From a virus (taxonomy: Duplodnaviria > Heunggongvirae > Uroviricota > Caudoviricetes), in IMG/VR virus record IMGVR_UViG_2913137851_000001: DNA of 25,991 bases; one strand, 5' to 3'. This document shows positions 1,641 through 4,112 of this stretch, piece by piece. Under the pieces are notes generated by a model. That model was not told the origin of the DNA, did no database searches, and saw nothing but the letters and a program-made list of their open reading frames with translations. Every line of letters starts with the position of its first letter. The first letter of the stretch is position 1. A program made the translations under genes and the position numbers.

Positions 1641-4112
1641 TTAAGAATCAGCCTGACTCGGGATCAGTTTTTGCCAGATAACTGAAACGTATTTTGCCTG
1701 GTAACGGGCGTCATCAAGTGCATTATGGCGCTCACCTTCGAATGGAATAGCCGTTCTGGCATCGAAGTCTATGGCTTTCCCCAGCTCAACGATTGTGCGT
1801 ACATCGCGATCGTTGTAGTAACGCCACGGGCAGGGGATCCCCTGCCGTTCGTATGAACGGCGCAAAATCGTGTTGTCGAAGTTGGCTCCATTTCCCCAAA
1901 CCTGAACAAAAAATTCACCGGAGTTTTCGTCGATAAATTCTCGCAATTGTAACAGTGCATCATCTAACGGGATTTCATCGGTCATAATGGCAGATTGCGC
2001 TTCGCGTGATTGCTTAAGCCACCATTTAATGGTGTCCCGATCAATGACTCCGCCAGCAGTTTCCAGATCGATAGTCTTACTAAATTCCGGTCCCATATCT
2101 CCGGTTTGCGGATCGAAAAATATTGCACCTATTGAGATGATCGGGGCATCAGGATTTTTTCCCATGGTTTCAAGGTCGATCATTAGATGGTCACACGTCC
2201 TGCTGGTGGATGTGATTTCGTGATGACTGTTCACCTTAATTGGGTGATCTGCCGTCTCGCCAGTTTCATTATCGCTATTGTGATGCTGATTGCCGCCAGT
2301 GTTCTCCTTGTGTGGATGTTCAGCGCCTTCCATTTCCTCCGGATCATCTTCCTGAACTTCAACCTGATACTCTTCATCGAATGTTTCTTGGTATGTTGCG
2401 TCGCCCATCACCGCGCCACAATCAGGGCAGTTGCCGCCGCCGGTCTGACCGCAGGCGGTGCAGACTTTTTCCACTTCCTGTTGCGCTACTGGTTCAGGCT
2501 GTTTCGTTTCTGGCTCGTTTTGTAACGCATTTGGACTGTTTTGTTCCGCTTTTTGGTAGTTCCGTTCCGATTCATGCTGGTTCTGGTTCACAGAATCGCG
2601 GGTCTGGAGCCCCTTAACCCATTTCGGATCATTCGGGTCACTAATCCCTTCAACAAATTCACCACGTGATGCAGCAAGCAACTTATCGGCGTCAGGCTGG
2701 CTGATATTGGCTGCCTGCATAATTTTGTTTACTTCGTCAGCGGTAACTTTTATCGGCTCTGGTTGTTCTGAATCTTCAGCGGTATCTACATTTTGCGGTA
2801 AGCCCGTGTATGTGCCATTTTTTCGGGCAAAATATTCTTCTTTTGTGATTTCAGTGGCGCCAGCAGCCAGTGCCTTATCCAGACCAGAGAGTTTGTTTGC
2901 GCGACCGTATTTTTCTCCGTCCTTATCTGCGAAGAGGAAATAGAACGGCCCCTCACGCTCTACAGATGGTTCAGCTTCCGGCGCGGTTTCATTTTTTGGG
3001 ATATCAGATACCTCAGTTTCCACTGCATCAGTTTGTGTTTCTGATGACTGGAGAACATCAACAGTGCCCAGGTCTGTTTCTTCATTCTCAAACACGCCCT
3101 TTGTCGTCAGGTATTCGCAGATATATTTGTTCAGTGCTACGGGATCTTTGTGAATGTCGATCGGACGCTCACGGACAAGGCCAAAAATAGTTTGGCGGTC
3201 GTAGCGAAGGGCATCAGGCTGTTTGCGCATTGATGCCGAGATACGCTTCCAGTCTTCGCGGTCGTTGTCGATAACTTCTTTTTTTGCCCAGCGATGGATG
3301 CTGCCGTCAATGTTTCCGGCATCCACATCACTAGGCCAGAGAGCGTAGGCCAGTTCGTCATCCAGTGTTTTCCATGTCTGCTTGTATTCGCGATGAATGG
3401 CAGCAATGACCGGGCTGATTTTTCCTGTTGAATTTTCAGTGTACTGTTGATTGGCTCTGGCGCGGGCGAGATCAACAACAGACGTGTATTTTCCGGTTTC
3501 CTTGCGTTCACCTTCGCGACGTTTTTTCCAGATGCGCATCTCTGCCTGAATTTCGGGCCATTTAGCACCAGGAATACATTTATGCTTAACCCACCCAATG
3601 GCGTGCAACTTAAGCTCCGGATACATGGCGTTAACTTCTGGCATTTTCATCAACGCTTCAACGATATGTCCGTCGAATGTTGCCATGTCTTCCTGCAACA
3701 ATTCCTGTGCGCTAATAACCATATCAACGGTGATGTTTTCACATGTGTCGAACTTAACCATGACAGCGTTCTGTACTTCAGGGGCCAGCTTGTCAAAAGT
3801 GACGTTCATCGGATCGGATTCAGTCTCAACCGGGACAAAAGAAGCAGACTCCTCATCCCAGCGGTTTTCCTGCATATATTCAGCATCCCATGAATCGAGG
3901 GCAGGGCGGGGTATGCCAGGTTTATCCTCGCAGACAATAAATTTATAAGCGCAGTCCTGAGCAGCCGGATAATGTTCCAGGAATTGCCAGTGAAATTTTG
4001 CTCGAGCACGGCGTTCGTCGCCAGCTTCAATGGCTGTGGCTACAGCCACAGCGCCTTCTTCCCTTGTTGCCAGTTCGTCAGGAATAGCGGCGCAAATAAA
4101 GACTTTACTCAT
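1641..4112 (-). CDS. RecE-like prophage exonuclease with C-terminal DnaQ-like (DEDDh) 3'-5' exonuclease domain
   Basis: Long ORF; the preferred start is the ATG at 4112 (MSKVF...), preceded by GAGG, rather than the TTG at 4148 used in the ORF track. Middle region contains [31 protein letters not shown], which I recall as a conserved block in Rac RecE. C-terminal ~190 aa show the DEDDh pattern (MIDLETMG ... H ... ALDDA). A Cys4 cluster ([16 protein letters not shown]) lies between them. Confidence 0.75.
   Translation of the reverse strand: [823 protein letters not shown]

What the first reader, a model, noticed from the sequence alone, without database searches (positions are those of the whole stretch)
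1641..4112. RecE-like exonuclease whose catalytic C-terminus is a DnaQ-like DEDDh 3'-5' domain
The central region carries a block ([31 protein letters not shown]) that I recall from Rac RecE, but the C-terminal about 190 aa show the DEDDh exonuclease pattern (DLETMG, H, ALDDA) instead of RecE's PD-(D/E)xK 5'-3' nuclease. A Cys4 cluster ([16 protein letters not shown]) and an acidic low-complexity linker separate the two parts. No RecT-like annealase is adjacent; the gene sits between xis and ydfD/dicB. This is a domain swap with opposite expected polarity.
Basis: partly seen in the sequence, partly recalled or inferred. Interest (0 to 1): 0.6.

Follow-up and report, generated by a model that had tools for sequence, protein, structure and literature searches.

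The report
RecE scaffold carrying a 3'-5' exonuclease
This very common E. coli prophage gene joins the non-catalytic front part of the recombination nuclease RecE to a DnaQ/DexA-type 3'-5' exonuclease instead of RecE's own 5'-3' nuclease; databases already list it, but nobody has studied what it does.

Summary
Window 1641-4112 (-) encodes an 823-aa protein of the Qin prophage of E. coli C, and K-12's pseudogene ydfE is its IS2-truncated N-terminus. Residues 642-813 are a complete Rv2179c/DexA-type DEDDh domain (Pfam E 2.4e-67) with all five catalytic residues. Residues 262-627 are homologous to Rac RecE 278-592, and the match stops at the start of RecE's PD-(D/E)XK domain. Residues 1-260 are not RecE-like (Pfam YdfE_N/YdfE_C).

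The swap is not a one-off. The same scaffold modules occur with a DEDDh exonuclease, with a PD-(D/E)XK nuclease followed by recT, or with a Rad52-family annealase. DEDDh fusions sit alone between the division-inhibitor genes and xis-int, with no annealase nearby. Free-standing homologues sit inside P22-like recombination modules.

Best reading: a recombination-module 3'-5' DNA exonuclease delivered by a RecE-type scaffold. Polarity, substrate and role are inferred, not shown.

The gene is in about 75% of complete E. coli genomes and is already annotated as an exonuclease, so this is an uncharacterised variant of a known kind. Interest is moderate.

The parts
1641..4112 (-). Complete CDS, 823 aa plus stop: the intact Qin-prophage 'exonuclease' (the full-length form of K-12 ydfE)
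   Evidence: ORF list. RefSeq annotation WP_081508834.1. aa 1-256 are 100% identical to K-12 ydfE before its IS2 insertion. PHROG 2082 matches end to end.
4122..4125 (-). Shine-Dalgarno GAGG, 10 nt upstream of the ATG at 4112
   Evidence: Upstream sequence read directly.
3498..4112 (-). aa 1-205: YdfE-type N-terminal folded region (alpha/beta 1-100, helical 105-205), not RecE-like
2232..3329 (-). aa 262-627: region homologous to the non-catalytic part of Rac RecE (RecE 278-592)
   Evidence: BLASTP E 2e-61. NF007259 profile positions 271-600. DNA is 78% identical to recE over gene nt 1425-1867.
3093..3380 (-). aa 245-340: helical domain shared with RecE and with nearly all scaffold relatives
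   Evidence: AF2 pLDDT about 90. Module blastp. dN/dS 0.11.
2817..2951 (-). aa 388-432: small beta-hairpin/alpha domain ([20 protein letters not shown]...[13 protein letters not shown]), flanked by disordered linkers
   Evidence: AF2 pLDDT 75-84. Conserved in the annealase-fused and PD-(D/E)XK-fused relatives. dN/dS 0.04.
2595..2687 (-). aa 476-506: conserved motif [31 protein letters not shown], 29/31 identical to RecE 456-486
   Evidence: Variants of the motif also occur in Rad52-fused relatives P0137 and P0158.
2418..2462 (-). aa 551-565: CxxC-x7-CxxC cluster, a putative zinc ribbon, shared with RecE Cys517/520/528/531
   Evidence: It is an optional module, present in only some relatives. 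Metal binding is inferred.
2232..2414 (-). aa 567-627: acidic, then His/Asn/Gly-rich low-complexity linker, shared with RecE up to RecE 592; the homology junction lies at its end
   Evidence: Composition table. Alignment end points.
1674..2189 (-). aa 642-813: DEDDh 3'-5' exonuclease domain (Pfam Rv2179c-like, T4 DexA-like)
   Evidence: PF16473 E 2.4e-67, full profile length. A family profile hits T4 DexA 8KEL at E 5.7e-18 (single sequence E 1.6e-6).
2169..2177 (-). Exo I motif: codons D646 and E648 (MIDLETMG)
   Evidence: Aligned to DexA D7/E9. 100% and 98% conserved in 85 relatives below 75% identity.
1875..1877 (-). Exo II motif: codon D746 (WGNGANFD)
   Evidence: Aligned to DexA D119. 97% conserved.
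1710..1727 (-). Exo III motif: H796 to D801 (HNALDD)
   Evidence: Aligned to DexA H186/D191. 99% and 97% conserved.
1317..1568 (-). Downstream neighbour: excisionase, followed by integrase at 2-1282. No annealase gene lies between the exonuclease and xis.
4205..4807 (-). Upstream genes of the same leftward block: ydfD (4205-4396), dicB (4393-4581) and DicF sRNA (4756-4807)
   Evidence: Annotation. Pfam DUF1482 and DicB. Rfam DicF 76.7 bits. No promoter or terminator signal above shuffles lies between them and the exonuclease gene.

Best explanation
The gene encodes a modular early-left-operon nuclease of Qin-type lambdoid prophages. A long, mostly non-catalytic scaffold carries a C-terminal two-metal DEDDh exonuclease of the T4 DexA/DnaQ type. 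The scaffold consists of the YdfE-type N-terminal domains, a helical domain, a small beta/alpha domain, a conserved linear motif, a Cys4 ribbon and an acidic linker. The last four of these are shared with Rac RecE. RecE has its PD-(D/E)XK 5'-3' nuclease at the position where this protein has the DEDDh domain. The likely mechanism is as follows. After derepression of the dicA-controlled leftward transcript, the scaffold brings the exonuclease to whatever DNA ends or partner RecE's N-terminal region recognises, and that target is still unknown. The DEDDh site (D646, E648, D746, H796, D801) then removes nucleotides from free 3' ends of DNA. Unlike RecE or lambda Exo, it works without a dedicated phage annealase. 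Shown here: domain identities, the homology junction, intact catalytic residues, purifying selection on the folded modules, gene context, and the combinatorial shuffling of scaffold and catalytic modules. Inferred: 3'-5' polarity, DNA rather than RNA as substrate, the targeting role of the scaffold, and a role in DNA-end processing or recombination.
For: Domain identity:
- PF16473 matches at E 2.4e-67.
- The closest solved relatives all act on DNA 3' ends: T4 DexA at 5.7e-18, then Cas2-DEDDh and DnaQ.
- All five catalytic residues align to DexA's and are at least 97% conserved in 85 diverse relatives.

Scaffold homology and junction:
- aa 262-627 match RecE 278-592, and the match ends where RecE's nuclease domain begins.
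- Phage 813R8 has a RecE-type N-terminus plus the same DEDDh domain.

Module shuffling:
- YdfE scaffold plus PD-(D/E)XK is followed by a RecT gene (PF03837, 2e-36).
- YdfE scaffold plus a Rad52/Rad22-family annealase lies next to a Gam gene, in the exo-bet position.

Recombination context of the domain:
- Free-standing homologues (56-58% identity) in epsilon34 and Bas106 sit between a Rad52-family annealase plus SSB and Abc2.
- This agrees with Zheng et al. 2025, who report DnaQ-like 3'-5' nucleases as lambdoid Rec-module members (PMC12315714).

Solo status:
- No annealase, SSB, Gam or Abc2 was found in 80 viral-contig loci totalling 901 kb.
- None is annotated in the complete phage PhiR42_1 or in phage 813R8.
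- None was called in the prophage loci of three more divergent fusion proteins.

Functional constraint:
- dN/dS is 0.04-0.11 in the folded scaffold domains, 0.29 in the DEDDh domain and 0.5-0.7 in the linkers.
- The domain DNA is present in 4047 of 5426 complete E. coli genomes.
Against: No activity, polarity or substrate has been measured for this protein or for any fusion of its type. Pfam names the family after an exoribonuclease, and NCBI often calls these proteins 3'-5' exoribonucleases, so RNA substrates remain possible. Cellular 3'-5' DNA exonucleases usually inhibit rather than promote recombination, as the Genome Research paper itself points out. The absence of any partner annealase also argues against a classical two-component recombinase. 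The scaffold's function is unknown even in RecE (PMC11611040), and its predicted folds match nothing informative. The 80 viral loci are near-identical relatives and not independent samples, and tblastn would miss annealase families I did not use as queries (Erf proper, Sak4, Gp2.5).
Confidence: 0.6

Rival explanations
1. It is an exoribonuclease. The DEDDh domain trims RNA 3' ends, as reported for M. tuberculosis Rv2179c, for example in turnover or processing of phage or host transcripts. Processing of the co-transcribed DicF precursor is one conceivable case.
For: The Pfam family is named '3'-5' exoribonuclease Rv2179c-like' and matches at E 2.4e-67. Many RefSeq copies are named 3'-5' exoribonuclease. 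DicF lies upstream on the same strand.
Against: A family profile finds DNA-acting enzymes as the closest solved relatives (DexA 5.7e-18, then Cas2-DEDDh and DnaQ) and no RNase at E of 1 or better. Free-standing homologues sit among annealase, SSB and anti-RecBCD genes. The scaffold is shared with a DNA nuclease and with a DNA annealase.
Confidence: 0.12
2. It is a prophage-encoded defence nuclease of the 'HREX' kind. Like the E. coli DexA homologue EcD, it would selectively digest modified (5hmC) DNA of superinfecting T-even phages.
For: Kang et al. 2025 (PMC12153337) report that EcD, an E. coli DexA homologue, digests T4 DNA and protects cells. They note that DexA homologues are most frequent in Escherichia. 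The window domain belongs to the same family.
Against: The residues that paper uses to define the type are not present. DexA D169 (5hmC contact) aligns to A780. W152 aligns to Y766. The tetramer residue D90, replaced by Ala in EcD, is retained as D718, although the alignment in these loops is only moderately reliable. PADLOC finds no defence model. The gene lies in the repressor-controlled early operon between dicB and xis, not in a constitutively expressed moron position. The long RecE-type scaffold is unexplained by this model.
Confidence: 0.1
3. It is a counter-defence or host-takeover nuclease. It would destroy host 3'-ended nucleic acids during lytic growth, either immune ssDNA species such as retron msDNA or host DNA for nucleotide scavenging as T4 DexA does. 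It would have no role in recombination.
For: T4 DexA, the closest solved relative, scavenges host DNA (abstract). Rac RecE degrades retron msDNA when overexpressed, which shows that nucleases at this genomic position meet such substrates. The lack of any partner annealase fits a non-recombination role.
Against: This is purely circumstantial, with no direct link to any defence system. It does not explain why the same scaffold is fused to a Rad52-type annealase or to RecE's nuclease with recT.
Confidence: 0.1
4. It is a genuine RecE orthologue: a 5'-3' dsDNA exonuclease for RecET-type recombination, as the frequent annotation 'exodeoxyribonuclease VIII' implies.
For: Phage records annotate it as exodeoxyribonuclease VIII. 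There is partial similarity to NF007259 and RecE.
Against: The similarity covers only RecE's non-catalytic residues 278-592. The NF007259 score is 282 bits against a cutoff of 1269. No PD-(D/E)XK domain is present. There is no recT.
Confidence: 0.02
5. It is a decaying remnant of a cryptic prophage with no current function.
For: The window's Qin prophage is defective: IS insertions, truncated replication genes and no structural genes. K-12's copy is destroyed by IS2. An internally deleted variant lacking D646/E648 exists (P0121).
Against: The reading frame is intact and all catalytic residues are present. dN/dS is 0.25 overall and 0.04-0.11 in the folded scaffold domains. A 99.9% identical copy sits in the complete phage genome PhiR42_1. 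The domain is present in 75% of complete E. coli genomes.
Confidence: 0.03

Closest known systems
Rac prophage RecE (exonuclease VIII, E. coli K-12 b1350)
   Same: The two share homologous non-catalytic regions: a helical domain, the [11 protein letters not shown](V)[14 protein letters not shown] motif, the Cys4 cluster and the acidic linker (window aa 262-627 to RecE 278-592). Both occupy the same genomic slot in the leftward early operon, between a division-inhibitor gene and xis-int. Both have a large modular architecture with the catalytic domain at the C-terminus.
   Different: RecE's catalytic domain is PD-(D/E)XK (PF12684, 5'-3' on dsDNA), whereas here it is DEDDh. RecE's N-terminus is PF06630, whereas here it is YdfE_N/YdfE_C. 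RecE is followed by recT, and this gene is not.
Bacteriophage T4 DexA (exonuclease A; PDB 8KEL/8KEN) and its E. coli homologue EcD ('HREX', PMC12153337)
   Same: Same DEDDh family, and the best solved match. The five catalytic residues align one to one. DexA and EcD are reported as 3'-5' DNA exonucleases.
   Different: DexA is a free-standing 227-aa protein and EcD is also small, whereas the window protein carries a 640-aa scaffold. The window domain lacks DexA's extra loops. The proposed 5hmC-recognition residues are not conserved (W152 to Y766, D169 to A780).
Free-standing DnaQ-like nucleases of lambdoid Rec modules (e.g. epsilon34 gp34, Bas106_0031; Zheng et al. 2025, PMC12315714)
   Same: They are 56-59% identical to the window's C-terminal domain and belong to the same Pfam family. 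They are early-left-operon genes of lambdoid phages.
   Different: They are about 182 aa with no scaffold, and are embedded between a Rad52-family annealase plus SSB and Abc2. The window protein is fused to a RecE-type scaffold and has no such neighbours.
M. tuberculosis Rv2179c (founder of Pfam PF16473)
   Same: Same Pfam family and the same DEDDh chemistry.
   Different: Rv2179c is a small cellular exoribonuclease (family description). It was not among the PDB sequence hits of the window family's profile at E of 1 or better. Its context and architecture are unrelated.
K-12 YdfE (b1577, Qin prophage pseudogene; Pfam YdfE_N/YdfE_C)
   Same: Residues 1-256 are 100% identical, and the locus is the same (dicB-ydfD-ydfE...intQ).
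   Different: K-12's copy is cut by IS2 after codon 256, so it lacks everything that identifies the protein as a nuclease.

Membership tests
RecE / exodeoxyribonuclease VIII (NCBIfam NF007259 equivalog) | Whole-protein score at or above the curated equivalog cutoff (1269 bits) | tested here: not met
   282 bits, and only profile positions 271-600 of 877 are matched.
RecE / exodeoxyribonuclease VIII | C-terminal PD-(D/E)XK nuclease domain (PF12684; RecE 606-866 crystal domain) | tested here: not met
   Rac RecE gives PF12684 at E 4.1e-28. The window protein gives no PF12684 hit, and its C-terminus is PF16473. The BLASTP homology stops at RecE 592.
RecE / exodeoxyribonuclease VIII | N-terminal Exonuc_VIII domain (PF06630) | tested here: not met
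   Absent from the window protein even at E up to 10. Present in RecE and in the sister fusions P0133 and P0136.
RecE / exodeoxyribonuclease VIII | Homology of the central non-catalytic region | tested here: met
   aa 262-627 against RecE 278-592, E 2e-61. DNA is 78% identical over 443 nt.
Two-component exonuclease/annealase recombinase (RecET, Red-alpha/beta type) | Adjacent single-strand annealing protein gene | tested here: not met
   None in the window, in PhiR42_1 or 813R8, in L011-L014, or in 80 viral loci by tblastn with RecT, Red-beta and Rad52 queries. Annealase families not queried could have been missed.
DEDDh 3'-5' exonucleases, Rv2179c/DexA-like (Pfam PF16473) | Profile match above the gathering threshold over the whole domain | tested here: met
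   226.5 bits against a cutoff of 27, profile positions 2-177 of 177.
DEDDh 3'-5' exonucleases, Rv2179c/DexA-like | Exo I (DxE), Exo II (D) and Exo III (Hx4D) catalytic residues | tested here: met
   D646, E648, D746, H796 and D801 align to DexA D7, E9, D119, H186 and D191. Each is at least 97% conserved in 85 relatives.
DEDDh 3'-5' exonucleases, Rv2179c/DexA-like | 3'-5' exonuclease activity, and substrate (DNA or RNA) | not testable with these tools
   Needs a biochemical assay. Polarity is inferred from the family.
YdfE_N / YdfE_C (Pfam PF27430 / PF27432) | Match to these families in the N-terminal ~260 aa | tested here: inconclusive
   The two models are missing from the local Pfam copy. 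They are precomputed hits on the 94%-identical cluster representative P0001 and all other close relatives, and the family names are given. aa 1-256 are identical to K-12 YdfE.
HREX (DexA-dimer-type 5hmC-specific nuclease; EcD) | Trp at DexA 152 and an acidic residue at DexA 169 (5hmC recognition), plus loss of the tetramer residue D90 | tested here: not met
   W152 aligns to Y766, D169 to A780, and D90 to D718, which is retained. The alignment in these loops is of moderate reliability.
Known anti-phage defence systems (PADLOC-DB) | Significant match to a defence-system protein model | tested here: not met
   The only hit is a 23-residue stretch at E 0.024 to a generic exonuclease effector.

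The most novel reading that the evidence does not exclude
The roughly 600 non-catalytic residues of RecE-family proteins may be a portable targeting platform that lambdoid phages attach interchangeably to a 5'-3' nuclease, a 3'-5' nuclease or a Rad52-type annealase. On this reading the DEDDh version, present in most E. coli genomes and lacking any annealase, is a one-protein DNA-end-processing system with a role unlike classical Red/RecET recombination. One example would be trimming 3' tails to redirect or block host RecA/RecBCD action on phage DNA. Finding what the platform binds would also answer the old question of what RecE's N-terminus is for.
Probability: 0.2. Interest if true: 0.7.

Novelty: new variant of a known kind. 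Interest (0 to 1): 0.45.

Why it matters
RecET is a workhorse of recombineering, yet the function of RecE's N-terminal two-thirds is still listed as unknown (PMC11611040). That region turns out to be a set of conserved modules under purifying selection. The modules are recombined with three different DNA-processing domains. This gives concrete handles for study, such as domain swaps and pull-downs with a scaffold shared by proteins of opposite polarity. It also corrects a widespread mis-annotation, because 'exodeoxyribonuclease VIII' implies a 5'-3' RecE. It points to an unstudied nuclease carried by about three quarters of sequenced E. coli, often in several copies, including pathogenic lineages rich in lambdoid prophages. 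If the enzyme shapes recombination between prophages, it bears on how mosaic phages arise.

Tried and rejected
Searches that led nowhere:
- Foldseek against the PDB with the AF2 model of aa 1-450 found nothing (best E 2.2).
- The afdb50 library was not available.
- PADLOC gave nothing.
- The promoter/terminator scan of 1200-6400 gave counts at or below shuffled expectation.
- Literature searches for PF16473/DUF5051 and ydfE plus exonuclease returned nothing. The Rv2179c papers are all mycobacterial. One search was wasted because 'RecE' as a word start matched 'receptor'. The supplement of PMC12315714 is not held.

Ideas considered and rejected or left open:
- An HREX-type 5hmC nuclease was rejected because the signature residues are absent.
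- Reliance on RecBCD, judged by Chi density, is inconclusive. PhiR42_1 has 6 Chi sites in 48.7 kb, which is intermediate.
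Full report
**What is at the coordinates.**
The window is the Qin prophage of E. coli C (100% identical to strain WG5, NZ_CP024090.1). On the minus strand, 1641-4112 encodes an 823-aa protein. An ORF from a TTG at 4148 is possible, but the ATG at 4112 has GAGG 10 nt upstream and is the start used by RefSeq for WP_081508834.1, 'exonuclease'. The gene order is int - xis - this gene - ydfD - dicB - DicF - ydfC/B/A - dicA. In K-12 the same gene is the pseudogene ydfE: residues 1-256 are 100% identical, after which IS2 interrupts it.

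**Domain identities.**
- Pfam places a complete Rv2179c-like DEDDh domain at aa 642-813 (E 2.4e-67, profile 2-177/177).
- A profile of this domain and six homologues finds T4 DexA as the best solved relative (E 5.7e-18), followed by Cas2-DEDDh and DnaQ. No RNase appears at E of 1 or better.
- D646, E648, D746, H796 and D801 align to DexA D7, E9, D119, H186 and D191. Each is at least 97% conserved among 85 relatives below 75% identity.
- BLASTP against K-12 RecE aligns aa 262-627 with RecE 278-592 (E 2e-61). The quoted block is 29/31 identical, and the Cys4 cluster and acidic linker are also shared.
- The homology stops where RecE's PD-(D/E)XK domain begins (PF12684, 615-850). At DNA level it is 78% identical over gene nt 1425-1867 and then ends.
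- The NCBIfam RecE equivalog scores 282 bits against a cutoff of 1269.
- The first ~260 aa have no similarity to RecE, whose N-terminus is PF06630. Close relatives carry the newer Pfam families YdfE_N and YdfE_C there.

Two corrections apply. The Cys4/acidic segment belongs to the RecE-shared side of the junction. The N-terminus is a third, non-RecE module.

**Architecture.**
An AlphaFold2 model of aa 1-450 (21-sequence alignment, mean pLDDT 76) predicts the following:
- folded regions at 1-205, 245-340 and 388-432;
- disordered linkers at 206-236 and 344-384.

**The swap is part of a combinatorial shuffle.**
An exhaustive HMMER search found 11,740 relatives. Local module-by-module BLAST and Pfam scans show the following combinations.

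| N-terminal scaffold | C-terminal domain | Examples |
|---|---|---|
| RecE-type | DEDDh | phage vB_EcoS-813R8 (RecE 50-591 at 59% identity; 97.7% DNA identity to the window gene from nt 1361 onward); P0123, P0133, P0136 |
| YdfE-type | DEDDh | the window protein; P0122 |
| YdfE-type | PD-(D/E)XK | P0140 |
| YdfE-type | ~270-aa module with no Pfam hit above threshold | P0137, P0151, P0153, P0181, P0233 |

The last module is a Rad52/Rad22-family annealase:
- Its profile matches free-standing ~243-aa Pseudomonas proteins at E of about 1e-58. Several of these are named Rad52/Rad22 by NCBI, and some carry PF04098.
- Two members give sub-threshold PF04098 hits on the signature motif.
- The AF2 model has the expected beta-beta-beta-alpha core.

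A further type (P0130) has yet another C-terminus of unknown kind.

**Genomic context separates the types.**
- The PD-(D/E)XK fusions are followed by RecT (Rac; P0140 with PF03837 at 2e-36).
- The annealase fusion lies right after a Gam gene, in the lambda exo-bet position.
- Every DEDDh fusion I examined is flanked only by small early genes and xis-int. This covers the window, the complete phage PhiR42_1 (99.9% identical protein), 813R8 and the loci of three more divergent fusion proteins.
- In 80 viral-contig loci (901 kb) tblastn finds no RecT, Red-beta, Rad52-type annealase, lambda Exo, Gam, SSB or Abc2. These loci are close relatives of each other, and unqueried annealase families could have been missed.
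- Free-standing homologues of the domain (56-59% identical) do sit inside P22-like recombination modules: Rad52-family annealase - SSB - (endonuclease) - DEDDh exonuclease - Abc2.

**Literature.**
- Zheng et al. [quoted passage not shown] They cite epsilon34 and remark that such nucleases usually inhibit recombination. They also mention 'RecE-2' proteins without a nuclease domain. The text I could read does not describe a RecE-DnaQ fusion.
- Kang et al. 2025 (PMC12153337) solved T4 DexA. They report that an E. coli homologue, EcD, digests 5hmC DNA and protects against T4. The window domain lacks the residues they single out: D169 aligns to A780, W152 aligns to Y766, and D90 is retained as D718.
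- A 2023 review states that RecE's N-terminal domain has unknown function and that the nuclease domain alone suffices genetically (PMC11611040).
- I found no paper on YdfE as an exonuclease or on PF16473 in phages.

**Interpretation.**
Securely shown:
- The protein is a RecE/YdfE-type scaffold carrying an intact DEDDh domain in place of RecE's nuclease.
- The folded modules are under purifying selection.
- The scaffold recombines with three kinds of DNA-processing domain.

Inferred:
- 3'-5' polarity, from the family.
- DNA as substrate, from the nearest relatives and the Rec-module context of free-standing homologues.
- A targeting role for the scaffold.
- A function in DNA-end processing after prophage derepression, without a dedicated annealase.

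Rivals that remain open are an RNA substrate, an HREX-like defence role and a counter-defence or scavenging role. A true RecE function and a dead remnant are effectively excluded.

**Novelty and score.**
The gene is anything but rare. Its catalytic-domain DNA is found in 4047 of 5426 complete E. coli genomes, with up to seven copies per genome. One 90%-identity cluster holds 23,183 sequences. It has a full-length PHROG and Pfam families for each end. Databases therefore already 'know' it, under inconsistent names: exonuclease, 3'-5' exoribonuclease, exodeoxyribonuclease VIII. What the literature I could search does not describe is its relation to RecE as a catalytic-domain swap, its solo context and the wider module shuffle. 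I rate it a new variant of a known kind, of moderate interest. Its main value is as a handle on the unexplained RecE N-terminus.

Noticed in passing
L009:5650-7986 (protein P0137); also P0151, P0153, P0181, P0233: Relatives with the same YdfE-type scaffold carry a Rad52/Rad22-family annealase as their C-terminal domain instead of a nuclease. The gene sits right after a Gam gene and before Sipho_Gp157, xis and int. I did not find this scaffold-annealase fusion described in the papers searched.
   Followed up: partly
Protein P0130 (702 aa); PHROG 26058: Another scaffold relative has a ~260-aa C-terminus with no Pfam hit and no nuclease or annealase similarity. It may correspond to the 'RecE-2' proteins without a nuclease domain mentioned in PMC12315714.
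   Followed up: no
L010:768-4354: A YdfE-type scaffold fused to a PD-(D/E)XK domain (P0140, 921 aa) is followed, with overlapping stop and start codons, by a divergent RecT-family gene. So RecT travels with the PD-(D/E)XK domain and not with the scaffold.
   Followed up: partly
window 1641-4112 versus K-12 L003:5079-5999: K-12's 'ydfE' is only the first 256 codons of this gene, cut by IS2. The Pfam families YdfE_N and YdfE_C are therefore named after a truncated fragment of a nuclease.
   Followed up: yes
Annotations of homologues: Naming is inconsistent and partly wrong. Names in use include 'exodeoxyribonuclease VIII', 'exonuclease', '3'-5' exoribonuclease' and, for PHROG 607, 'exonuclease VII'. 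Some records for free-standing homologues also say exodeoxyribonuclease VIII.
   Followed up: partly
Protein P0121 (527 aa): An internally deleted variant joins aa 1-~368 directly to aa ~664-823. It thereby loses the Exo I residues D646/E648 and is probably an inactive derivative.
   Followed up: no
window 2202 (inside the gene), 13699, 13756, 18323 (+); 14289, 14341 (-): The 26-kb window has six Chi octamers (GCTGGTGG), and the complete relative PhiR42_1 has six in 48.7 kb. That exceeds the roughly one per strand expected from base composition in PhiR42_1. No conclusion was drawn about dependence on RecBCD.
   Followed up: partly
window 6554-10500: The prophage is defective to the right of dicC. 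The ydaT-like gene is truncated, an ORF is frameshifted, there is an ISSen4 (IS3-family) insertion with its frameshift element (Rfam IS1222_FSE at 8849-8966), and there is a partial ISNCY transposase. The replication and structural genes found in PhiR42_1 are missing.
   Followed up: no
window 16247-16639, 19149-19534, 22451-22649: Rfam finds two cspA-type thermoregulator leaders (upstream of cspB and cspI) and the sRNA family IS009, as expected for Qin.
   Followed up: no
L012/L013:11324-11992: In a related enterobacterial genome the prophage carrying a RecE_N-DEDDh fusion is integrated a few kb from the host's own exoX (RNase_T plus ExoX-like_C) and holE genes. This is probably coincidence.
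   Followed up: no
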